Assembly: GCF_009914755.1 (NCBI RefSeq)
Contig: NC_060925.1
DNA length: 64,000 bases
DNA from: the human T2T-CHM13v2.0 reference genome, Homo sapiens
Strand: one strand, 5' to 3'
Each line of letters begins with the position of its first letter. The first letter of the stretch is position 1. Under the pieces are notes generated by a model, which saw only the letters and a program-made list of their open reading frames with translations, did not search any database and was not told the DNA's origin. Positions 32,814 to 56,108 of the stretch are shown here, in pieces. The position numbers and the translations under genes are program-made.

Positions 32814-33384
32814 GCATCAAAGGTCATAGTTCCTGAAACTGCAGAGACAGCACTGAAGACTGCCATGTAGGAAACAGGATGTCTCTAAAGTGAAAAGAGC
32901 CAGGACTTGGATCTAGAAGTGAGTAGTAGAATGGGAAAGAATCTAGTCGTAACTTAGAAACCACCTCAGTCCTTCCTGGGTTAGCATTTGTCATCGTTTA
33001 CTTAGGCTGCAGCTGAAGGGATTTGATTCAAGCCTCTGTGACTCAGCAGTGGGCACAAGCATTGCTATCCCCCTTTTTTCTAGGAAAATTGTTCAAAAGA
33101 AAACCTTGACACAAACTGCGCATTAACCCTATATTACAACATCTTCATAGAGTCAGGTGAGAAGAAGGGAGGCCAGAGGATCCAGTCTTGAATGCTAACG
33201 GTATCTTAAACAGGGTCTTTATTGAGTTCTACCTTAGTATGGTAAATTATAGTTGTAAGGAGAATGGTCTCCCCTTTGTCCCTTTTGACTACAAGAAGCC
33301 GGTGCTCACCCTCTGAAAAGTCAGAAGATGTACAACATCTGCTACTCCTACCAAATGCTAAGCCACTATGAGGATATAATGCTT

Positions 33385-33856
<472 letters not shown>

Positions 33857-34432
33857 AACAATGCTTTATTTCTTGACTCTCTTTCTACACCCCTACTGCA
33901 AAAGACTAATTTTCCCCAAAGAGGACCTGATTTTGACTGAATTTTAGCCTCTTCCTCTTCCACGTGATAAAGCTGCTAATTGCCTGAGAGAAGACTGCTG
34001 AGTTACAGTGTAGAGGGAAGCATACTCAGGGACAATTAGCAACAATTCTGTTTCTGTTAAACCTTATAATTCTTATATCACTACTGCACAGAACTAGACA
34101 TGGAGCTAGTTTATGTCTCACTGTACCATTTACTAATTTTTTGACCCTGATGAAGTAACTTAACCTCTTGTAGCTTTATCTCATGTACAAAATTGAGACA
34201 ACAGTAAGATGTTCTCATCTAAGTAAAATGTTGAAATGTTGGAGTGTTCCAGGCTTGTTTAGATAGATGGAAAACACACACACACTCATTCACTCTCTCT
34301 CTCTGTTACTCTGTCTTTCCAATAAGTCTTGTTTTCACTTCTTAAGAATCAGCCTAGAGGTGACTGGAGGAAGAGAAACTAAGTTGTGGTGACAAAGAAC
34401 AAGACTATGAGTAAGGATCACTATTACCCTTA

Positions 34433-34765
<333 letters not shown>

Positions 34766-34799
34766 TTTTTTTCAAGGAATAGAACCACTGCACATGCTC

Positions 34800-34959
34800 C
34801 TCCTGATCCCCCAAAGTGTAAGATTTTCATGCAAATAGCTATCTCCCAGGACTTACATTAGTAAGGTATCTGGATATAAAAATCAGTGTTCCCTAAATCA
34901 GCTGTGTTTCCATTATATCAAAAATAAACTTTTAGAAATTACCATTTGAATTAACAAAG

Positions 34960-35002
<43 letters not shown>

Positions 35003-36770
35003 CCTAGAAAGAAATCCCGTAAGATTTGTGCAGGGCATTTATGAAGAAAACTGTGCAATTTATGGGAAGTTATTAAGAAAGACCACATAATTTAATAGAT
35101 ACATTAAGTTTATGGTTTAGAAGACTCAATGTCATTAAGTACAAATTTTCTTCAAATTTGTTTACATATTCAATGTAAATCATCTAAATCCCAACAAATA
35201 CTAAGAAAGCTGACAACTTGATTCAATGTGTACATTAATGAGCAAAAATCCAAGAATAACTATGAAAATCCTGAGATGATTAAGGAGATGTGCACTACCA
35301 TATATAAGGATGTATTATAAAGCTATAATATTAAGACAATGTGGTATTGAGACAAAGATAAGCAAATTGCTGGTCAAATAGCCTAAGCTCTAAAAACACA
35401 TATATATGAAACTTTGTGATAGAATTGTCAGTTCATATCAAAAACAGGATGATTAGGTCTTTTAAATGGTACTGACACAACTGCTTATACACAAGGGAAA
35501 AAAAAGAAATTAGATACCTGCTTCACATCACCTACAGACATGGACTTAAGACTTAATTGTAAAAGGCAAAACTTTAATACTTTTAGAAGAAAATACTTTG
35601 GAATCAGCAAAGATTTCATAAGCAAGACAAAAATACTAATCATAAAATAAAATACTGACAAATTAAACCTCATCAAAATTAAGAACTTTTGTACATGAAA
35701 AGACAACATAAAGAAAGTCAGGAAATGAGTTGCCAATCAGAAAAAAATAATTTCAACAGAAGTAAGCCATGAGGGTTTGTATCAGACTAAATTTTTAAAC
35801 CTTTATAAACCAATAAGAAATAGACAAAAGTGCCCACTATGAACAAAATAAAAGCCACAAACAGATATTTCATGGAAGAAACTGCATAAATGGTAAATTA
35901 ACATATGAAAAAGGACTCAACCTCATCAGTAATCAGGGAAATCTAAATTAAGTCTACCATAGAGTACTATTTTATAACTACAAAAATGGAAATGGGGACT
36001 AAGAAGTCTTCTTACATTATATAAACCAAAAATAAAATTGTAAGACCCCCCAAGCATCTTAATGGACCCCTCCTCTTGGCCAAGGGCATTCCAAAGTGAA
36101 CCTGAAAAACTAGTTCAGGCCATGATGGGAAGGGGGAGCTGAACATGCCTCATCATACCCTCCTCCCTTTTGGAATTACTGGTAGAACAGACTCTAAGTC
36201 TGATAAAAAAAAAAAAACATTTACAATCTATTCTCTCTGAAGTCTGCTGCCTGGATACCTGGAGGCTTCATCTGAATGACAAAACCTTCGTCTCCACAAC
36301 CCCTTATCACAAGCCAGATATTCCTTTCTATTGATAATAAGGAATTGCCAATCAGAAAATCTTTGAATCTGCCTATGACTTGGAAGCCACCTCACCCCTG
36401 CCTGCTGCTTCCAGTTGTCCTGCCTTTCCAAACTGAACCAATGTACCTTTTACATGTATTGATTGATGTCTTATGTCTCTGTAAAATGCATAAAACCAAG
36501 CTGCATCCTGACCACCTTGAGTACATGTTCTCAGGATCTCCTGAGGGCTGTGTCACAGGCCATTGGTCACTCATATTTGGCTCAGGATAAATCTCTTCAC
36601 ATATTTCACAGAGTTTGACTTTTTTGTTGACAAATACTAAGTGTTGACAAGGGATTTAGTGACATAGAAATCCTTATATCCTATTAATGACAGGGCAAAG
36701 TAGTATAGCCATGTAGAAATTAACTTGGCATCATCTTATAAAATTAAAAATTTACACATCTATAACACCT
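34800..36770 (+). mobile_element. Old L1 (L1M) ORF2 3' fragment with (CA)n at ~34962-35002
   Basis: A-rich sense L1 ORF2-like motifs. Confidence 0.7.
36020..36632 (+). mobile_element. MER4-family ERV1 solo LTR
   Basis: TATAAACCAAAAATAAAATT...CAGAGTTTGACTTTTTTGTTGACA. Confidence 0.8.
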
Positions 36771-37044
36771 TATTTTTCTTTCAGTACCTTTTAAAGATGT
36801 TGTTGCTACATTGTCTTCTCACTTGCATTATTTCCAACAAGAAATCTGATGTTTTCTTTGTGCCTCTGTGTGTAGCATGTCTTTTTATCTCCGATCACTT
36901 TTGAGATTTTCTCTCACTAACTTTCAGTAATTTGATTATTAAATCTTTATGCTGTTTTCTTCATGGTTTTTGTTGTTTGGGGGGTGTTTTTATTTGTTTT
37001 TGTGCTTGGGGTTCATTGAGAATCTTGGATTTATAAATTTATAG

Positions 37045-37524
37045 TGTAGGGGAGAAAAAATAATTTTTCTTCTACCCTTCTGAGTTCTCAGCTGGGACTT
37101 TTATAACAAGATAGATTAACAAGAGAAAAGCAGATAATCAGGGAAAAATGAGTAACTCTCAAAGAGGTGGCCTAGAATTTTGGCTTATGTAGCATCTTCA
37201 ACTAAAAGAAAGAAAGAAGGGTGTTGGGAAAGCAAGCTATGGGAAAGTGTTCAGGAAAATCAAACAAGAGTAAGGTTTATTATGCAGATTTAAATTGGTG
37301 CCTTCTCCATTGGTAAGAGCCTTTTGTGATTTAGTCCTCCTTCTTTTCCCAGCCCAGAGAGGGAGATAGCCTTAGAAATGGAGATTTCTTTTAAAAATGT
37401 AAATTTCCCTTACAGAAGGGTAACTTCTACTGTGTTTTTAGAATTCTCCTGTGTCTACTGTTTCTCAAAATAATCCTTATGCCAAAAAGTCATATTTTAG
37501 GGTGGCACATGCCTGTCTCCTACA
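37045..37524 (-). mobile_element. ERV1 solo LTR (MER34-group-like)
   Basis: TG..CA termini interrupting L1 sequence. Confidence 0.6.
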
Positions 37525-37582
37525 AGTTTTCATCAAGTTTGAAAACTTTTTGGTCATTCTTTGTTCAAATATTTTTTCTATC

Positions 37583-38211
37583 TGTTACCAGGAAGGGGTC
37601 CCAATCCAGACTCCGAGAGGGTTCTTGGATCTCATGCAAGGAAGAAGTTGGAGTGAGTCCATAGAGTAAAGTGAAAGCAAGTTTATTTAAGAAAGTAAAG
37701 AAATAAAGAATGACTACTCCATAGGCAGACCAGCCCCAAGGGTTACTGGTTGGCTATTTTTGTGGTTATTTCTTGATTATATGCTAAACAAGGGTTGGAT
37801 TATTATTCCTTTCCAGGAAAGGGGGGGTGCAATTCCAGGAACTGACAGTTCCTCCTCTTTTTAGACCATATAGTGTAATTTCCTGATGTTGCCATAGCAC
37901 TTGTAAACTGTCATGGTGCTGGTGGGAGTGTCTTTTAACATGCTAATGGTTATAATTAGCATATAATGAGCAGTGAGGACGATCAAAGGTCACTTTCATC
38001 ACCATCTTGGTTTTAGTGGCTTTTGGCCAGCTTCTTTACCATATCCTTTTATCAGCAAGGTCTTTGTGACCTGTTCCTTGTGCTGACCTCCTATCTCATC
38101 CTGTGACTAAGAATGCCTTAACCTCCTGGGAATGCAGCCCAGTAGGTCTCAGCCTTATTTCACCCAGCCCCTATTCAAGATGGAGTTGCTCTGGTTCAAA
38201 CGCCTCTGACA
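37583..38211 (-). mobile_element. MER41 (MER41B-like) solo LTR
   Basis: - strand begins TGTCAGAGGCGTTTGAACCAGAGCAACTCCATCTTGAATAGGGGCTGGG; perfect TSD TATC at 37579-37582 and 38212-38215. Confidence 0.9.
37811..37841. promoter_or_regulatory. Tandem GAS (STAT) motifs in MER41
   Basis: TTCCAGGAA at 37811-37819 and 37833-37841. Confidence 0.7.
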
Positions 38212-38244
38212 TATCCACCTTCCTCTTTTTTCAAGGACTCCAAT

Positions 38245-38944
38245 TGTAACGCTAAAGATTTTTGCCTTAGCCAGACCAAAGAATTGGTGTGGCGGCTGCC
38301 CGTGGCGATGGAAACACGGACCAAGAGAAAAAAGGCTGTAGGCTTTATTGAGCAGAGTGACAGTACAAAGCTTTTCAGCGTGGAAGGGGTTTCGAGCGGG
38401 TAGTCAGAGGTCGATGATGCAGTTGCTTTTGAAACTCTTTAAGGCGGGAAATACGTGTAGAGGGAAGATGTTACCAGAGCGAGAAACAAAGGCAGTAAAT
38501 TATTTTGTGACATGTCTTAGATTTTGAGGAAAACCAGAATTGTAACTTAGGTTTTATTTATTTTATGACCTTGCAGCAGCATGGCAAAGGAAACAATCTT
38601 ACAGGACTTTATAAAGTATGTTTACAAGGAATTGGAATTGGGAGTATAGATAAAGTTCGCTGGTCATAGAAAAACAGGCATTTAATATTCCTTTTAGTTT
38701 TAGGGGAGGGGGAAGGGAGAGAGGGAGAGAGGACACAGGGAAGCTTACAGCAAAATTTTTGCTGTTTATAGCTTTTTTTGGGAAGAAAACACATGCACAA
38801 ATCCTGGTGTTAGGAATATTTTAAGCATATATCTTTAATATTATTCATTCAGGACCGAAGTAAGTTCTGATGCAGAAAATGAGTGAGTTTTACAGCTTTC
38901 TGAGCCCGTTTGACTCAGGAAGCCCAGCTGGCCCCCTCCTTTCA
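38245..38944 (-). mobile_element. ERV1 solo LTR (LTR30-like)
   Basis: - strand begins TGAAAGGAGGGGGCCAGCTGGGCTTCCTG; TG..CA termini; TSD-like CAAT/AAAT. Confidence 0.7.
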
Positions 38945-39331
38945 AAATTACACATATATTAGGCCACTTGAAGTTGTCCCACACCTCACTGATGCTCTTT
39001 TCATTTTTTTTTAACCCTCTGTTTCATTTTGGATTGTTTCTATTGCTCTGTCTTTGCATTCATTAATCTTGTTTTCTGTGGTCTAATGTGCTCTCAATCC
39101 CATCCAGCATACTGGTATTCATCTCTAGAAGTTGGCTTTTAGTGTTTTTCTATTTTCCATGTCTTAATTGAGGTAAGACCCTTCTGGGTTCTCTATCACA
39201 TGCCTTGTGAATTGTGCTCTCCTTTTTTGGGAACTGGCACTATTTCCAGCCCTGTGTGACTGTTGGGTACTGTTCTAGCTAATGCTTTCAAGTGGTTCTT
39301 TCCTGGGGTAGTTTTTTCACACACATGCACC

Positions 39332-39797
39332 TGTGAAATTAAAAAAAAAAAGAAGAAGAAACTTTTTATCTGAGGAATGTGAGCCCCTTTAAATTATCAG
39401 GCTCGGAGAGGCATTGGAATGAAACTGCAGTCACATCACTCCCCCTTGAGTGATTATCTTGTAAAGCCACTTGCTATACGGGCTCCAGACTAACTGATGC
39501 CAAGCAGCCATAAAATACCATATGCTGGACACCACGACTCATATCCTATAGTTCAACAGTGTATAACCAATAACTAATCCATGTCATCTCTGTAAGCCAA
39601 TGAAAATTTCTATCAAAGAACTTTGTATCCATCCACTTCTTCTTACCTTTGCCTTTAAAAACCTGCTTGTAACAAAAGCTGATTGAGCACTCCCTGAGTT
39701 AACTTGGAAGTGTGTCCTGGGCAGCTGTGCTCACTTTGGCTCAAGTAAACTCTTTAAATTATATCTTGTGCTTCAGCCCCTTCCTTCTAGATCAGCA
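39332..39797 (+). mobile_element. ERV1 solo LTR (MER4 group, MER72/MER57-like)
   Basis: TGTGAAAT...TTTATCTGAGGAATGTGAGCCCC...CAGCA; TSD-like CACC/CACT. Confidence 0.65.
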
Positions 39798-41545
39798 CAC
39801 TGATTACTACTCTGCTGAATACTTGGTGGGGACCCTCAGCAGATCTCTGGAATTCTCTCTGTGTGCAGCTTTTTCATTTCCATTTCTTGGATCCATGAGC
39901 TCTAGCCACCTTGGTCTCTCCAGACTCAGCTCTGTCTCCTCAATTCTGGGACTCCACTGGGACCTGCCTGAGTTCCCCTGTACCACAGCCTGGAGACCCT
40001 CTCAATGCAGTAGGTGAGGCAATTGCAGGGCTCATCTTTTTTCTTCCGTATCTCTCAGGGGTGACTGTCTTTTGTTGCCTGATGTCCACAGTTTCAAAAA
40101 ACATTGTTTCATGTATTTTGTTCTTTTGTTTAATTTTGTTTAATTTTGTTTCAGGTGAGAGGATAAATCCAGTCTCTGCTACTCCATCTTGGCTGGAAAT
40201 CTGGTATATCATTAATAATATTCTTGTTGTTAATTTGGGTTGTGGGTTTATAAATGTTCATTTTCTTATTTTGCATCATTAACCATATACACATATATAT
40301 TACACATTTTTTCATTTGCGTAAAATATTAGTCAACTTTTTTAAGTTCTAAAAGAAAGTGAAGAGCCCTGGGGCGGAACAAGGGCAAAGAAGTAGGAAGA
40401 GTCTGTGGCCAACCTCTTAACTCACGTACCTTTCTGACCCCTCTACCTCTTCTACCTAGAGCCCTCCATCTCAGCCAGCTCCCCCTGTCCTTGTCACCAT
40501 GACTCTGAAGGTGCCTTTCTGACACACCAAGATGGTCAAGGAAAAATGGTGCTGGGTTAGGTGACAGGGAAGATCATGAGCTTTCATACTTTATGATCTG
40601 ACAAGCCACTGTAGCCTCTCACATTTATACACTAAGTGAGGGTCTTTCAGAATAGCGCTTCAGTGTCTGCACCTGACTCACACTATTAGGCAGTTAAAAG
40701 CTGGGGAATGAGCTCATGTGAAGAGTTTTTCCATTTCAGATGATAGCTATTTTTAGGAACACAAGCTACATAAATGTTTTAACCCTTTTCCCATCCTTTT
40801 CCTCTTGCTGCTGTGATACAGGAAGAAAATCAAAATGGAGTGACCTTGCTATCTGGGGAAAGATGAAAACTGCATATGCAAAAGCAAACAGACTGAGATT
40901 TATAACGAGTTGATCCCTTAAAAGCTTAGGAAAGAATCTCAAGGGCACATAGGAAAATAAGCAAAGGGCTTGATAGACATATTCATGACAACACAAGAAG
41001 GTGAAGTCGGGAAGAGGAAATGGACAAGGTCATCCCAAATTGAAATAACTTATAAAAGATAAATTATAATATCTCCAGAAATTAACTGTAAACATTCCTA
41101 TAAAATCATAGATGATAATTTTTTAAAATAAAAGATTGAGTAGTAAGAATAACTAAGAATAAAAAATTAATGAGTTCCTAGTGGAAACTTAAAATTGAAC
41201 CACTGGGGGACTTTCTATAATGAATGGCAGTTGAAGAAAAAAATCGGGTAAACTTTATATGAATATTTGAGAAACACCTCAAGCATTAGCAACTACATAA
41301 AAGTTATACATTTCACCTGTCCAAGAGCTGTTACAACAGTATACAAAACATATTAAGCAAAATTGTACTATAGACAATTACTTATATGCAATTCTTTACT
41401 TAAAATTTAGCAGATACATTTGAATAGTTTCTAAAACACATGATCATCAAAGAAGGAATTGAGTAGGAAATAAAGCATTACTGTTTTTTACTCATAAAGA
41501 GATGAAAATAAAATAAATTATTGGTCAATTCTTTATGAGATTTAA

Positions 41546-41869
<324 letters not shown>

Positions 41870-42039
41870 TAAAAAAAACATATCAAATAATTGTTCATAA
41901 ATCATTTTCTGTAGTAGAGAGCAATTTTTCTTAAAATTGGCAAATAAGATTTTGCATCTACCTTTGAGAAAATTGTATTTGTAAAGTGATTTTAAAAGAA
42001 TGAAGCCTATGAGTATGATGGCATTATAAAAGTATCAGT

Positions 42040-42379
<340 letters not shown>

Positions 42380-42408
42380 CTAATTGTTCTTCTGAGCATC
42401 ATGATTTT

Positions 42409-42662
42409 TTTCCATGAATTTTTATTTTAAGTTCCAGGGTACATGCGCGGGATGTGCAGTTTGATTACATAGGTAAACGTGTGCCATAGTGATTTGCTGC
42501 ACAGATCAACCCATCACCTAGGTATTAAGCAAAGCATTTATTAGCTCTTCTACCTGACATTCTCCCTCCCCCAACCCCACCCGACTGGCCACAGTATGTG
42601 TTGTTCCCCCACCATGTGTCCGTGTCTTCTCATCGTTCAGCTCCCACTTATAAGTGAGAACA
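42409..42662 (-). mobile_element. 5'-truncated L1PA 3' end
   Basis: L1PA 3'UTR motifs; 15-bp TSD GAGCATCATGATTTT at 42394-42408 and 42663-42677. Confidence 0.9.
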
Positions 42663-44719
42663 GAGCATCATGATTTTCATTGTCCATCAAATGCTAGAAG
42701 ACTACTCTGCTTTTGTTACTATGTTTGCCCCATTTTTCTAGCTCTTCTTACATGAATTTAAACCTACATCAATGGCTATTTCCTCAACATTTGGAAACAA
42801 CAATACTTATTAGAAAGAAAGTATTTTATCCTTCCAGGCTATAGATCTTACATTCCTCTTACACAACAATCCTAATTCCCTCATGTTATCCTGATCAATG
42901 AAATGATTTCACTTATTTTTCAAAGAAGTAGCTATTTTACTACAAAGCAGGAATCGCAAGGCATGGGGTGGGCACTGTTATACTCCATCAGTGAGTACGT
43001 AAAGGAAATCAAACTGTCTGATTTTGAATCCTGCTTCTATTTTTTACAACCTTGGACAAATTACTGATTTCCTCTTTCACTAGGTTTATCATTTGTAAAA
43101 TGGAGATACTAGTGTCTACTCATGGATTATTGTGAGGCTTAAATAAGAAAACATGTATCAAGCATATTTGTCTGGCATGTAATAAGCACTCTAAAATTTA
43201 TGCAGTGATGAGGATAATGATCATAGACAATCTGATAGCATCTTATCCAAAGGAAAAAATGCGCATTTCCTTTGAGTAAGCACTACTGATTCTAGGAATG
43301 TGTCCTAAGGAAAAAATAAGTCAAATGTTTAAAGGTAGTCACAAGACTATTTTGGTAGTAAGCAGTCTTTTTTACTGGTCACACAGTAAAAAATTAGAAA
43401 TAACCTACATGTTCATGAAGAGAAGTTGGTGAAATAAATTATGGTACATGCATACAGTAGAAAACTTTGGAGACAAAATAGTAAAATAGTTACAGATATA
43501 GGCTTTGAATATAAATTTTAACAAGCTGAGGCTTCTCTCGTCTCTTCAGAACACCCTGAGTTCTTCCCGGCCTTTCTTCCTTGCTTTTCATTTGTGTCAG
43601 TCAGCTCTTGCTCGTATAGCAATCCTCAAATCTCAGTAGCATATAAAGGTAAGCATTTAGTTCTCACTTACAAGTTTGCAGGGCAGGTGAGGCAGCTCTG
43701 CCTCAAGCCACAATGTCTAGGACAGCTCTGTTTCGCACTGTGGCTGACTAGCTAAAAAATGTTCTTGTCTCAGCAATCACAGGAGAACAAGAGGGTGAGA
43801 GATAATGTGTGAAGCTTCCTAAGTGCTAAGTTTGAAATTAGCACCATGTCATTTCCATTCACATTTCGCTGGCCAATGAAAGTCTCATGATGAGCCACAG
43901 TCAAGAGTCAGAGACATACCCTCATGAGGCTGTGGAGAGAGTGTAGATTCAGGGAGCGGTGAGAAACTGGGGCCAGTACACCAACTTACAGCATGATTTG
44001 TCATCATTTTTCATTCTCTGCTAGTAAGATTGCCAAAGTCTCTCTGCACTCATTGAATTCATTTAGCTCTCTTTAGCTCTCTTTTTTTAGCTCTCATTTA
44101 GTTTCCATTTAGCTCTCTTTCTCTCTTACCACAATACCTAAAAATCTTTTTATGGGGTTACAACTCTGTCTCAGGAGCCACCTCAGTTTGGTGGCACAGA
44201 GCTCCCCACTTGTACTCTGAAACTCTTTTCTTGAAGATATTGCTATCCATGTGCATGAGTTATTTTTCTTCTCCATAGCATCCACATTAAACAATTAATT
44301 ACCTTGGATTTAGCCAAAATAAACACTCCAAATTCATGATGTCTTTCAGGAAGAGAGTTTGTTTTCTTTTTTAACCAAAATGGGAGATTGATCCTGTCTG
44401 TGTCCCCTAGAGGAGCAGAGGCTGGTTTGTATTAGGGCAGCTCTTGTAGATGAGTAACTTTTCCCATGGCCTCATAGAGGCTGATATAGAAACTTCTGGA
44501 TTCAAATGATTGTTTGGAGGCATTAGCCAGGCATTGAACCAATTATAAAGAGTGAGGTTTTGCCATATTCTAACCGTAAGAAACAGAAACGGTAGAGGGT
44601 AAAAATAGAATAGAATGTCAATACAACTTTAGCCTTTTCCCTGGATTCTGAGAGTTCATAACCTGAAAATCAGAGATTCAAACTGGGAGAGATGGGCTAA
44701 CAGGTATGAGCATGGGAAA

Positions 44720-44758
44720 AGCATGTTTCAAGAATTTGAGATGTATTTCCCAGAAAAG
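44720..44758 (+). promoter_or_regulatory. FCGR1A: IFN-gamma response region (GRR) of the FCGR1A promoter
   Basis: AGCATGTTTCAAGAATTTGAGATGTATTTCCCAGAAAAG; GAS TTCCCAGAA at 44747-44755. Confidence 0.95.
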
Positions 44759-44784
44759 CAACATGATGAAAATGGTCAGAAAAG

Positions 44785-44805
44785 GCAATTTCCTTCCTCT
44801 TTTCT
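44785..44805 (-). promoter_or_regulatory. FCGR1A: PU.1 box of the FCGR1A promoter
   Basis: AAAAGAGGAA on the - strand at 44803-44794, between the GRR and the ATG. Confidence 0.85.
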
Positions 44806-44889
44806 AATTTGGCTCTGGAGCCACCAGCAGAACCTCTTCAATATCTTGCATGTTACAGATTTCACTGCTCCCACCAGCTTGGAGACAAC

Positions 44890-54699: not shown

Positions 54700-55700
54700 A
54701 ATGATGGGATGGGGCGTCGCGCTCCGAGCGTGTCCCGCGGCGGGCCCCTGGCGCCACACTGTGGCCGCATGTGCATATTGCAGCCTCCGCCTGTATCTGG
54801 GGGCCGCAGCCGCCAGCGCCCGGGGACCCAGCTGCGGCGAAAGCTGTTGGGCGCGCGCTTCTCCGCAGCTCCGCGCCCCCGCCAAAACCCAGTGAGAAAT
54901 TATTTGCATTCCTGGAGGCTGCAGGAGCGAGAAATGAGCTGTAGGAGTCGGTGGGCAGCAACGGCGGCAGGCGGATGGAAGAGAGCAAGGGGTCGCCGTT
55001 CGTGTCCCATTCGCCCGAGTCAAGGGGCGGCCCCCCAAAATCCCAACGTCATTGTTTCCTCGGGGCCGGCAGGTGTGAAAACCCGGCGGCAGAATGGAAG
55101 TTCGGTAGTCTGCGAGGGCCCGCGGCCTCCCCAGGCGCGTAGCTGAGTCCCTCCAACCCCGCCCCGGGCCCGCCAGCTCCCGGGCCCCGGCGCGGCGCCA
55201 CCTGGCGGCCGTCTGTGGAGGTTGCAGCTGCCGCCAAGCCCCGGGGATGCTGCCGGCCTCAGGTGCGCCCGGCCGAGCCTCCGCGGAGAGGAGGATTGGT
55301 AGATCACAGGAAACGGGAGGACGGCGCTGGGCTCCCAGCAGGCGCCCCATTTTCTTGGCTTGTCGCAAGAGCAGCCGGAGGCGGCGGCGGCAGGGAGGGA
55401 GCGGGTGGGGAGTGGGAGAGGCCGCCCGCCTCCCCGTCCAGCTCGGAGGACCTCCCAGCTGGTTCCCTCACCGTCAAAAGCAGGAAGGGAGCTGGCTCGG
55501 CGGGATCAGCAAGCCAGCGGGCAAGAAGGCTCCAGGCTCCGCAGGGGCCACCCCACATGGACTCGGGAACCGCCGAGCTTCACCCACAAGGGCCCACGGC
55601 CCATCCTATCACGGATGAAAAGATTACAGGACTGACAATGAGGCCCTGGAGGGATCTGATGCAGCTGGCGGGGAGAAAGGTGGGTCGGACTTAGAGGGGT
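54700..55700. promoter_or_regulatory. CpG island 3' of FCGR1A
   Basis: Very high GC/CpG with GC boxes and an octamer ATTTGCAT at 54902-54909. Confidence 0.9.
55194..55228 (-). promoter_or_regulatory. CTCF motif with upstream module
   Basis: - strand CTGCAACCTCC-ACAGA-CGGCCGCCAGGTGGCGCC. Confidence 0.7.
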
Positions 55701-56108
55701 GGTGGGGTGGAGGAATCTTTCTTCTCCCTGGGACCTACCGAGGCTTCACCTGTGAGGGTCTTGGGCCCATCCTTCAATCCGAGAGCTTCCAAGCCAAAGC
55801 ACAGCTCCCCAGAGTGGACAAGTGGAGCAGAACCGGCATTAGGTTGGGAGGGTGGGTCGTTAGGGGTCGTTCTTCACCTTCCAGGCTGGGTATGGAGACC
55901 TCTAAATTCATCCTAGGGCCACAAGAGCTTCTGTAAGAGTTCAGGCCCGTTTCAGAACACTCAGAGGTTCCTAGCCTGAGAAGTAATCCCCAAAGCAGAC
56001 CAACCGGTTTGGGGTAAAACAGGAAGAGTTGGGTCCATTCTGGATCTTTCCTAGCTAAATGCCTTCAGGATTTAGGAATATTTTCCTAGGAGGGCCAAGG
56101 ATTAGCTA

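What the first reader, a model, noticed from the sequence alone, without database searches (positions are those of the whole stretch)
37583..38211. MER41 LTR with two perfect GAS motifs 7 kb upstream of FCGR1A: candidate ERV-derived IFN-gamma enhancer
Seen: intact solo LTR (TSD TATC) with TTCCAGGAA at 37811 and 37833, 22 bp apart, plus an IRF-like AAAGTGAAAG at 37668-37677. Knowledge: MER41B LTRs carry tandem STAT1 sites and act as IFN-gamma-inducible enhancers (e.g. at AIM2), and FCGR1A is a classic STAT1 target. Inference: a simian-specific distal enhancer that may be missed because the FCGR1 paralogs are poorly mappable.
Basis: partly seen in the sequence, partly recalled or inferred. Interest (0 to 1): 0.72.

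Follow-up and report, generated by a model that had tools for sequence, protein, structure and literature searches.

The report
MER41B solo LTR upstream of FCGR1A
A real, roughly 40-60-million-year-old retroviral remnant (a MER41B solo LTR) carrying two intact interferon-response motifs lies 7 kb upstream of the CD64 gene FCGR1A; it could respond to interferon, but nothing available here shows that it does, and the gene already has its own interferon switch at its promoter.

Summary
Window 37583-38211 is a full-length 629-bp solo LTR with TG..CA ends and a 4-bp duplication (TATC). It has TTCCAGGAA at 37811 and 37833 and AAAGTGAAAG at 37668-37677. Its sense strand is minus, antisense to FCGR1A.

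It belongs to a large family: 4353 first-look candidates, with scored copies 82-86% identical. Printed features point to MER41B: a 26-nt motif with 1 mismatch and paired GAS sites. Copy-to-copy divergence (K2P 0.164) fits entry into a simian ancestor 45-60 My ago, as printed.

The insertion predates the FCGR1 duplications. Copies 98-99% identical lie 6.6 kb upstream of FCGR1CP and FCGR1BP.

Points against a special role:
- 9 of 27 unrelated copies keep both GAS sites, about the neutral expectation.
- The spacing is 22 bp, against 21 bp typical of the family.
- The LTR differs more between paralogues than its surroundings do.
- FCGR1A has its own promoter GAS.
- No held paper links MER41 with FCGR1 or CD64.

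The AIM2 analogy is loose, because that LTR is ERV-Saru. The enhancer role is plausible but untested.

The parts
37579..37582 (.). Left copy of the 4-bp target-site duplication (TATC on the + strand)
   Evidence: Read. The same flanks appear in LTR-sense orientation, in all three FCGR1 paralogue copies.
37583..38211 (-). Full-length 629-bp solo LTR of the MER41 family (most likely MER41B). Sense strand is minus; TG..CA ends; U3-R-U5 runs from 38211 down to 37583.
   Evidence: 4353 first-look candidates; 37 other copies listed at 82-86% identity, most aligning over 1-629; a printed MER41B-like motif matches; single copy in the window; 3 CpG observed against 29 expected.
38212..38215 (.). Right copy of the 4-bp target-site duplication (TATC)
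   Evidence: Identical 4-bp flanks were seen in 13 of 27 unrelated family copies.
37833..37841 (-). GAS-type site 1 (LTR-sense 371-379), in U3
   Evidence: The homologous site fits TTCNNNGAA in 19 of 27 copies.
37811..37819 (-). GAS-type site 2 (LTR-sense 393-401), 22 bp centre to centre from site 1
   Evidence: Two sites are present in 9 of 27 copies: 21 bp apart in 8 and 22 bp apart in 1.
37774..37799 (-). Match to the 26-nt MEME motif M2 that Schmid and Bucher 2010 say resembles MER41B. It contains a TATA-like hexamer at LTR-sense 431-436 (window 37776-37781).
   Evidence: 1 mismatch, 0 matches in 100 shuffles; position of the TATA-like hexamer.
37682..37687 (-). AATAAA polyadenylation signal of the LTR (sense 525-530). 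It fixes the orientation.
   Evidence: Kept in 20 of 27 copies.
37668..37677 (.). IRF-like decamer (AAAGTGAAAG on the + strand; LTR-sense 535-544), just 3' of the polyadenylation signal
   Evidence: The exact decamer is kept in 15 of 27 copies. Sun et al. 2023 report STAT1 and IRF1 motifs in MER41 (abstract and passages).
44747..44755 (+). Neighbour, not part of the element: the promoter-proximal GAS of FCGR1A, about 90 bp before the RefSeq start at 44840
   Evidence: The review PMC13728925 (passages) ascribes IFN-gamma induction to promoter GAS, ISRE and PU.1 sites.

Best explanation
Window 37583-38211 is a solo LTR of the MER41 family, most likely subfamily MER41B. MER41 is a gammaretrovirus-like class I ERV that entered a simian ancestor. 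The two LTRs of one provirus recombined and left a single LTR between the original 4-bp duplication. It lies antisense to FCGR1A, 6.6-7.3 kb upstream, in an intron of the lncRNA LOC105371406. It was copied along with the locus when FCGR1 was duplicated.

Its U3 still carries the family's promoter-proximal module: two GAS-type sites about two helical turns apart, 30 bp before a TATA-like box, and an IRF-like site after the polyadenylation signal.

Inferred mechanism, not shown here: after IFN-gamma, phosphorylated STAT1 dimers can occupy the two sites, possibly cooperatively, and induced IRF1 can occupy the IRF-like site. I put STAT1 occupancy in IFN-gamma-treated myeloid cells at about 0.5.

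The most likely outcome is an auxiliary or redundant distal site at most. The gene's IFN-gamma induction is already accounted for by the GAS and PU.1 sites of its own promoter. The motifs are kept by descent, with no sign of selection.
For: Element and family:
- Ends and duplication.
- Copies: 4353 candidates, and 37 other listed copies at 82-86% identity.
- The printed MER41B-like 26-nt motif matches with 1 mismatch, against 0 expected.
- Print says the MER41B consensus has two GAS sites 21 bp apart. Of the 9 of 27 copies with two sites, 8 show 21 bp.
- A full-length copy (515 of 606 aligned positions identical, GAS pair 21 bp apart) and a second, interrupted copy lie 18 and 23 kb from IFI6. 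Raviram 2018 describes two MER41B elements at about that distance (passages).
- 4-bp duplications occur in 13 of 27 copies. That length is listed for the group I ERV types in Frith 2025's table.

Age:
- Mean K2P is 0.164 over 351 copy pairs, or 0.082 per lineage. At recalled neutral rates of 1.5-2.2e-9 per site per year this gives about 37-55 My. Print gives 45-60 My and a simian ancestor.
- CpG count is 3 against 29 expected.
- The insertion is older than the FCGR1 duplications: copies 98-99% identical with the same flanks lie 6.6 kb upstream of FCGR1CP and FCGR1BP.

Competence for STAT1 and IRF binding:
- Both GAS sites and the IRF-like site are intact in all three paralogue copies.
- MER41B is enriched in IFN-gamma-induced STAT1 sites in HeLa, in IFN-stimulated enhancers, and in chromatin opened in infected macrophages.

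At most an auxiliary role:
- The promoter GAS sits at 44747, and print ascribes the induction to the promoter.
Against: - No binding, accessibility or acetylation data could be consulted.
- RefSeq has no enhancer feature on the FCGR1A copy.
- Motif presence predicts occupancy poorly. Of 298,431 high-scoring non-repeat sites in HeLa, only 15,993 carried 6 or more tags (Table 3). Most captured MER41 elements overlapped no ChIP peak: 327 of 1687 did.
- Subfamily B was not tested against a Dfam or Repbase model, because none was available. The 43-bp segment said to separate B from A (a secondary source) is inferred only from the presence of the GAS pair.
- The spacing is 22 bp, not 21 bp.
- The 27 copies used for counts are the best matches to this LTR, so they are a biased sample.
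Confidence: 0.6

Rival explanations
1. One reading: the LTR is a working, IFN-gamma-inducible distal enhancer that measurably raises FCGR1A (CD64) induction in simians, and has been overlooked because reads map to three paralogues.
For: - The GAS pair and IRF-like site are intact.
- The position is 7 kb upstream of an IFN-gamma-induced gene.
- Print, in passages citing Chuong 2016, reports MER41 elements that contribute to induction of IFI6, APOL1 and SECTM1.
- Mappability is poor: 27% of 36-mers are diagnostic.
- A reporter-based hESC enhancer feature in RefSeq covers LTR-sense positions 1-495 of the FCGR1CP copy, GAS pair included.
Against: - Keeping both sites matches neutral expectation. 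At 0.082 changes per site over 12 fixed positions, about 0.37 of copies should keep them; 9 of 27 do.
- The LTR differs 1.1-1.3% between paralogues, against 0.44-0.69% for the rest of 10 kb.
- The spacer length varies: 22, 22 and 20 bp.
- The promoter GAS already explains induction.
- Recalled, not checked here: mouse Fcgr1 is IFN-gamma-inducible without any MER41.
- No held paper links MER41 with FCGR1A, FCGR1 or CD64.
Confidence: 0.2
2. Inert relic: the LTR is never occupied in FCGR1A-expressing cells (closed or methylated chromatin) and has no regulatory effect. The motifs are simply not yet decayed.
For: - Most MER41 copies show no ChIP signal: 327 of 1687 overlapped any peak.
- High-scoring GAS sites are seldom occupied.
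- RefSeq has no regulatory feature on the FCGR1A copy.
- Strong CpG depletion suggests long-term germline methylation.
- There is no sign of constraint.
Against: - The copy is among the better-kept third of the family.
- It lies in a locus that is active and IFN-responsive in myeloid cells.
- The near-identical FCGR1CP copy carries an experimentally derived enhancer feature, although in stem cells.
Confidence: 0.35
3. The LTR acts in another setting, not as an interferon element for FCGR1A. It could be a stem-cell or placental enhancer, as described for constitutively active MER41 enhancers, or an element of the surrounding lncRNA LOC105371406.
For: - RefSeq's 'OCT4-NANOG-H3K27ac hESC enhancer' lies on the FCGR1CP copy.
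- Sun et al. 2023 describe MER41A/B/C enhancers in trophoblast that are bound by GATA2/3 and MSX2 and are distinct from the IFN-stimulated ones.
- The LTR lies in an intron of LOC105371406 (annotation supplied with the finding).
Against: - The feature is on the paralogue copy, not on this one, and assigning it to one of three near-identical copies is itself uncertain.
- I did no motif analysis for GATA or MSX.
- No annotated transcript starts in the LTR.
Confidence: 0.15
4. It is an LTR of a family other than MER41B: another MER41 subtype, or a look-alike such as ERV-Saru.
For: - No curated repeat library could be searched.
- MER41E also has a GAS pair 21 bp apart in its consensus.
- Look-alikes exist: the AIM2 LTR has the same layout at 70% identity.
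Against: - The family is large (4353 candidates), unlike ERV-Saru with about 14 copies.
- The printed MER41B-like motif matches 25 of 26 positions.
- The nearest relatives include the copies near IFI6, placed where print describes MER41B elements.
- The GAS-bearing segment is present, which a secondary source says separates B from A.
Confidence: 0.08

Closest known systems
MER41B LTRs (MER41 family, gammaretrovirus-like class I ERV of simians)
   Same: - Length is about 630 bp, with TG..CA ends and a 4-bp duplication.
- The GAS pair sits in U3, before a TATA-like box.
- The printed 26-nt MER41B-like motif matches.
- Divergence fits the printed age.
   Different: - GAS spacing is 22 bp, against 21 bp in the printed consensus and in 8 of the 9 two-site copies.
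- Neither GAS site contains a CpG here.
- Subfamily assignment was not checked against a curated model.
MER41B elements near IFI6, reported in print to contact the IFI6 promoter and to contribute to its induction
   Same: - Full-length homology: 515 of 606 aligned positions identical.
- A GAS pair is present.
- The element is distal to an IFN-induced gene.
   Different: - That copy has 21-bp spacing and printed functional evidence. This one has none.
- The paper says 'about 20 kb downstream', whereas the only matches I found within 30 kb either side lie 18 and 23 kb beyond the 5' end of IFI6 as annotated. The identification is therefore probable, not certain.
The AIM2 enhancer LTR ('MER41.AIM2'), named ERV-Saru by Frith 2025
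   Same: - Same layout: GAS pair at 376 and 397, and AATAAA at 542 of 644 bp. This LTR has them at 371, 393 and 525 of 629 bp.
- Global alignment score is 210, against 89 +/- 11 for shuffles.
- Both are simian class I solo LTRs next to IFN-induced genes.
   Different: - Identity is only 396 of 563 aligned positions (70%). BLAST finds nothing at E <= 1e-3.
- It belongs to a low-copy family: 12 long matches besides itself, about 14 copies in print.
- It lies about 300 bp from the AIM2 start and in sense orientation, not 7 kb away and antisense.
- RefSeq marks it as an active region.
The promoter-proximal IFN-gamma response region (GAS plus PU.1 site) of FCGR1A
   Same: A GAS-type STAT1 site serving the same gene.
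   Different: - It is a single site about 90 bp before the start, of host rather than retroviral origin.
- Print supports it as the element that mediates induction (passages). I recall the original 1991 promoter study, but it is not held.

Membership tests
Retroviral solo LTR, class I (ERV1) | TG..CA termini | tested here: met
   Also 20 of 27 family copies, taking BLAST ends as boundaries.
Retroviral solo LTR, class I (ERV1) | 4-bp target-site duplication on both sides of a single LTR | tested here: met
   TATC on both sides. 13 of 27 copies have identical 4-bp flanks. Frith 2025's table lists a 4-bp TSD for its group I ERV types.
Retroviral solo LTR, class I (ERV1) | U3-R-U5 layout with a TATA-like box and a polyadenylation signal on one strand | tested here: met
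   The TATA-like hexamer is at sense 431 and AATAAA at sense 525, both on the minus strand. AATAAA is kept in 20 of 27 copies.
MER41B | Full-length homology to a high-copy LTR family about 630 bp long | tested here: met
   4353 candidates, and 37 other listed copies at 82-86% identity. Print gives 7190 MER41 copies in six subfamilies.
MER41B | Sequence printed as MER41B-like (MEME motif M2 in Table 1 of Schmid and Bucher 2010) | tested here: met
   one match at 37774-37799 on the minus strand, 1 mismatch, 0 in shuffles.
MER41B | Two high-scoring GAS sites 21 bp apart, centre to centre | tested here: inconclusive
   Two perfect sites are present, but 22 bp apart. The family copies show 21 bp in 8 of the 9 with two sites. 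The difference lies in a C-run that also varies between the paralogues.
MER41B | Presence of the 43-bp segment that MER41A lacks | tested here: inconclusive
   This is inferred only from the presence of the GAS pair. The criterion comes from a review's account of Chuong 2016. No MER41A copy was identified for direct comparison.
MER41B | Best match to the curated MER41B model among all human LTR models | not testable with these tools
   No Dfam or Repbase library was available, and the RefSeq masking track carries no family names.
MER41B | Insertion shared by simians and absent from other primates | not testable with these tools
   No non-human primate genome was available. Age is inferred from divergence and from print.
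IFN-gamma-inducible ERV-derived enhancer (Chuong type) | Induced STAT1 and/or IRF1 occupancy | not testable with these tools
   No ChIP data. Supplementary site lists (Schmid and Bucher Files S1 and S2; Chuong 2016 tables) are closed or not held.
IFN-gamma-inducible ERV-derived enhancer (Chuong type) | Enhancer chromatin or an annotated regulatory feature on the element | tested here: not met
   RefSeq lists no enhancer feature on the FCGR1A copy, only a masked-repeat stretch. The FCGR1CP copy carries a stem-cell enhancer feature. The RefSeq set is sparse, so this is weak evidence.
IFN-gamma-inducible ERV-derived enhancer (Chuong type) | Lies near an IFN-induced gene | tested here: met
   6,629-7,257 bp upstream of the FCGR1A start (supplied annotation). 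The paralogue copies lie 6.6 kb upstream of their genes.
IFN-gamma-inducible ERV-derived enhancer (Chuong type) | The gene's induction depends on the element | not testable with these tools
   This needs experimental evidence. Nothing in print was found.

The most novel reading that the evidence does not exclude
The MER41B solo LTR is a genuine IFN-gamma-induced STAT1/IRF1 docking site that loops to the FCGR1A promoter and raises CD64 induction in simians above what the promoter GAS alone gives. It was triplicated with the FCGR1 locus. It has escaped notice because only about a quarter to a third of short reads over it can be assigned to one paralogue. The C-run between the two GAS sites sets their spacing at 22, 22 and 20 bp in the three copies. 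It could then make the three paralogue copies differ in STAT1 cooperativity.
Probability: 0.2. Interest if true: 0.5.

Novelty: new member of a known kind. Interest (0 to 1): 0.3.

Why it matters
CD64 (FCGR1A) is one of the most strongly IFN-gamma-induced myeloid genes and is used as a marker of interferon and infection states. If a simian-specific retroviral LTR adds to its induction, it would be one more case of MER41-type co-option at a medically watched gene. It would also show how regulatory elements in recent segmental duplications are hidden from short-read assays.

As it stands, the element is an ordinary, well-preserved MER41B copy. Its motifs are explained by descent, so the finding is a reasonable candidate for a look at existing data, not a discovery.

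One by-product is useful to readers of this literature. The textbook 'MER41B at AIM2' example is, at the sequence level, a different low-copy LTR (ERV-Saru). Arguments by analogy from AIM2 to MER41B copies should be made with care.

Tried and rejected
1. I expected the AIM2-upstream LTR to be a near relative, which would have named the family directly. BLAST of the LTR against 2 kb upstream of AIM2 found nothing at E <= 1e-3. A permissive run gave only a 32-nt, 81% match at the GAS pair. The AIM2 element proved to belong to a low-copy family and is 70% identical overall. Frith 2025 explains this. I dropped AIM2 as a naming anchor.

2. I looked for the print-named MER41B 'about 20 kb downstream of IFI6' on the 3' side of IFI6, over 30 kb. 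There was no match there. The only two matches lie on the 5' side. I use them as a probable anchor only.

3. Chuong et al. 2016 could not be read (not held), nor could the 1991 FCGR1 promoter paper (not held). What I say about them comes from passages of other papers or is marked as recalled.

4. I could not score the two GAS sites with the published STAT1 weight matrix, because the matrix is in a figure that is not held.

5. Literature link between MER41 and FCGR1. MER41 with FCGR1A, with FCGR1 and with CD64 each gave 0 papers. FCGR1A + 'transposable element' + STAT1 + enhancer gave 1 paper, judged unrelated from its title and abstract start in the listing and not opened. FCGR1A + 'kb upstream' + STAT1 + ChIP-seq gave 0. 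MER41 + Fcgamma gave 2 papers held and 1 listed, and its two passages are unrelated. Supplementary tables, which may list this locus, are closed.

6. Provirus check. No second arm or direct repeat of the LTR lies in 36000-44800; only Alu-like repeats at 41.5-42.3 kb were found. I did not look for a core gene of a full-length relative, because the LTR and print sufficed for naming.

7. Constraint test across paralogues.

8. Considered and rejected: chance co-occurrence of the two motifs (they are a family feature), and a promoter role towards FCGR1A (the LTR is antisense, and no annotated transcript starts in it).
Full report
THE OBSERVATION. One search shows an element that starts with TG at 37583 and ends with CA at 38211. 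It is flanked by TATC at 37579-37582 and at 38212-38215. TTCCAGGAA occurs three times in the 64-kb window (937, 37811, 37833) against 1.23 +/- 1.06 expected, and 14 of 100 shuffles reach three. Two of the three lie 22 bp apart inside the element. AAAGTGAAAG is at 37668-37677. Generic GAS-type sites (TTCNNNGAA, a recalled consensus) are not enriched in the window: 30 against 26.7 +/- 4.8 expected.

ANATOMY AND ORIENTATION. The only AATAAA lies on the minus strand (LTR-sense 525-530, window 37682-37687). It is preceded by a TATA-like hexamer at sense 431-436 and followed by a U5-like end. So the LTR reads from 38211 down to 37583 and is antisense to FCGR1A. In sense coordinates:
- The two GAS-type sites are at 371-379 and 393-401, 30 bp before the TATA-like box. 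This is where a retroviral U3 keeps its enhancer.
- The IRF-like decamer is at 535-544, just after the polyadenylation signal.
- The LTR has 3 CpG where 29 would be expected from its base composition, as in old, germline-methylated repeats.
- There is one copy in the window and no second arm within 36000-44800.
Together with the duplication on both sides, this makes it a solo LTR. It lies in an intron of the lncRNA LOC105371406 (supplied annotation). No annotated transcript starts in it.

FAMILY. A search of the same genome gave 4353 first-look candidates. The 40 listed matches are the LTR itself, two copies at 99% and 98%, and 37 others at 82-86% identity, most of them aligned over positions 1-629.

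Naming rests on print, because no curated repeat library was available.
- Schmid and Bucher 2010 (PMC2897888, passages) state that the MER41B consensus has two high-scoring GAS sites 21 bp apart. They also state that their 26-nt MEME motif M2 resembles MER41B.
- That motif matches window 37774-37799 on the minus strand with one mismatch. No match occurred in 100 shuffles.
- Among the 27 unrelated full-length copies I fetched (L004-L030, the best matches to this LTR and so a biased sample), 9 have two GAS-type sites at the homologous place. They are 21 bp apart in 8 copies and 22 bp apart in 1.
- Raviram et al. 2018 (PMC6292174, passages) describe a MER41B element about 20 kb from IFI6 and a second one further on. 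Within 30 kb either side of IFI6 I found only two matches to this LTR. One is a full-length copy 18 kb from the 5' end (515 of 606 aligned positions identical, GAS pair 21 bp apart). The other is an interrupted copy at 23 kb. The paper's word 'downstream' does not fit the annotated strand, so this anchor is probable, not certain.
- A review's account of Chuong et al. 2016 (PMC9963469, passages) says that MER41A differs from B by a 43-bp deletion that removes the STAT1 motif. This LTR has the motif-bearing stretch.
- The 4-bp duplication, also seen in 13 of 27 copies, is the length that the table in Frith 2025 lists for its group I ERV types. That paper states that Dfam classes all MER41 subtypes as Gammaretrovirus (PMC11905727, passages).
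I put MER41B at about 0.85 and the MER41 family at well above 0.9.

AGE. The mean Kimura distance between the 27 copies is 0.164 (351 pairs, range 0.119-0.202). Between this LTR and those copies it is 0.147 (0.123-0.169), or 0.138 without CpG sites. Half of 0.164 is 0.082 changes per site per lineage. At recalled neutral rates of 1.5-2.2e-9 per site per year this is about 37-55 My. Print gives 45-60 My and entry in a common ancestor of simians. I could not test the orthologous site in other primates, because none was available.

The insertion is older than the FCGR1 duplications. Copies with the same flanks lie 6,602 bp upstream of FCGR1CP and 6,604 bp upstream of FCGR1BP. Over 10 kb the three paralogous regions differ by 0.44-0.69% outside the LTR. 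That suggests a few million years, or less apparent time if gene conversion has acted.

DOES THE SEQUENCE POINT TO A FUNCTION? The motifs are family features.
- The homologous GAS site 1 fits the pattern in 19 of 27 copies.
- Two sites are present in 9 of 27 copies.
- The exact IRF-like decamer is present in 15 of 27.
- AATAAA is present in 20 of 27.
With 0.082 changes per site and 12 fixed positions in the two sites, about 0.37 of copies should keep both by chance alone (my arithmetic). The observed share is 9 of 27 (0.33). So this copy belongs to the better-kept third of the family, and its state needs no selection to explain it.

All three paralogue copies keep both sites, but that is trivial at about 1% divergence. 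The LTR is in fact more diverged between paralogues than the rest of the 10 kb:
- 7 of 629 against 41 of 9331 positions (Fisher p = 0.03).
- 8 of 627 against 57 of 9325 positions (p = 0.065).
- 8 of 628 against 64 of 9325 positions (p = 0.14).
The C-run between the two sites varies, giving spacings of 22 bp (FCGR1A), 22 bp (FCGR1CP) and 20 bp (FCGR1BP). Schmid and Bucher report that induced paired sites prefer 18-21 bp, with 18-22 bp moderately enriched outside repeats. So 22 bp is at the edge of the favoured range.

WHAT PRINT SAYS ABOUT SUCH ELEMENTS.
- MER41B shows the strongest IFN-gamma induction of STAT1 tags among repeat types in HeLa (Table 2).
- It is enriched in IFN-stimulated enhancers of trophoblast stem cells (PMC10069462, abstract and passages).
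- It is enriched in chromatin opened in infected macrophages (bioRxiv 10.1101/707612, passages).
Motif presence is nevertheless a poor predictor of occupancy.
- Of 298,431 high-scoring non-repeat sites, only 15,993 carried six or more tags (Table 3).
- Only 327 of 1687 captured MER41 elements overlapped any HeLa ChIP peak.

FCGR1A has its own GAS-type site at 44747-44755, about 90 bp before the RefSeq start, followed by a purine-rich stretch. A 2026 review ascribes IFN-gamma induction to promoter GAS, ISRE and PU.1 sites (PMC13728925, passages).

RefSeq carries no regulatory feature on the FCGR1A copy. The FCGR1CP copy is covered over LTR-sense 1-495 by an 'OCT4-NANOG-H3K27ac hESC enhancer' feature. 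That points to some enhancer potential of this sequence, but in stem cells, and its assignment to one of three near-identical copies is uncertain.

No held paper contains MER41 together with FCGR1A, FCGR1 or CD64. Three further searches gave nothing relevant. Supplementary tables, which may list the locus, were closed.

THE AIM2 ANALOGY.
- The LTR about 300 bp upstream of the AIM2 start (chr1:158214100-158214743, minus strand) has the same layout: GAS pair at 376 and 397, and AATAAA at 542.
- It is only 70% identical to this LTR (396 of 563 aligned positions). The alignment score is 210, against 89 +/- 11 for shuffles.
- It belongs to a small family, with 12 long matches besides itself at 69-79% identity.
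- Frith 2025 names it a full-length ERV-Saru LTR of about 14 copies, 'thought to be a MER41 element'.
The analogy holds for architecture, not for family.

MAPPABILITY. The share of k-mers overlapping the LTR that differ at all from both paralogue copies is:
- 178 of 664 36-mers (27%).
- 234 of 678 50-mers (35%).
- 351 of 728 100-mers (48%).

VERDICT. The element is real, full length, and of the MER41 family (most likely MER41B). It is simian in age, older than the FCGR1 duplications, and competent in sequence for STAT1 and IRF binding.

Its use as an interferon enhancer of FCGR1A is plausible but not shown. I put induced STAT1 occupancy in myeloid cells at about 0.5 and a measurable contribution to CD64 induction at about 0.2. 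Several results here weigh against a special role: neutral-level motif retention, no constraint between paralogues, off-consensus spacing, and a promoter that is itself sufficient according to print.

It is a new candidate member of a well-known kind. Interest is modest (0.3).

Noticed in passing
L031:501-1144 (chr1:158214100-158214743, minus strand), upstream of AIM2: The LTR known in the literature as MER41.AIM2 is only 70% identical to the FCGR1A LTR and belongs to a low-copy family (12 long matches besides itself). Frith 2025 names it ERV-Saru. Reviews still call it MER41B.
   Followed up: yes
chr1:142939678-142940236 (FCGR1CP paralogue copy, L002): A RefSeq 'OCT4-NANOG-H3K27ac hESC enhancer' feature covers LTR-sense 1-495 of the paralogue copy, GAS pair included. 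The FCGR1A and FCGR1BP copies carry no such feature.
   Followed up: partly
window 37820-37832, and the homologous places in L002 and L003: The C-run (G-run on the + strand) between the two GAS sites differs in all three paralogue copies. This gives spacings of 22, 22 and 20 bp, and it is one of the few places where short reads can tell the copies apart.
   Followed up: partly
window 33000-42999 compared with L051 and L052: The three FCGR1 upstream regions differ by only 0.44-0.69% outside the LTR, while the LTR itself differs by 1.1-1.3%. The duplications are very recent or homogenised by gene conversion.
   Followed up: partly
window about 38240 to beyond 38900: About 25 bp to the right of the LTR another repeat family begins. 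Its copies are 84-90% identical, and some pairs lie about 4.8 kb apart on one strand elsewhere in the genome, which suggests another LTR-type element. No second arm lies within 36000-44800. I did not characterise it.
   Followed up: partly
window 37045-37525: The left flank is an older, unrelated repeat whose copies are 70-78% identical. The MER41B LTR therefore sits between two other repeats, not inside one.
   Followed up: partly
window 36268-36468: RefSeq annotates a 'silencer' (peak406 fragment used in an MPRA reporter construct) 1.1 kb from the LTR.
   Followed up: no
window 37583-37947: The RefSeq soft-masking track (stretches of 100 bases or more) covers only 37948-38213 of the LTR. The half that bears the GAS pair and the IRF-like site is not masked in that track.
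   Followed up: no
window 55255-56019: A second RefSeq stem-cell enhancer feature ('OCT4-NANOG-H3K27ac-H3K4me1 hESC enhancer', chr1:148917255-148918019) lies inside FCGR1A and overlaps the uncharacterised gene LOC124905738.
   Followed up: no
L049:8436-9058 and L050:3188-4335 (chr1:27531435-27532057 and 27536187-27537334): Two copies of the same LTR family lie 18 and 23 kb beyond the 5' end of IFI6, the second split by an insert of about 600 bp. They are probably the two MER41B elements that Raviram 2018 describes, although that paper's 'downstream' does not fit the annotated strand.
   Followed up: partly
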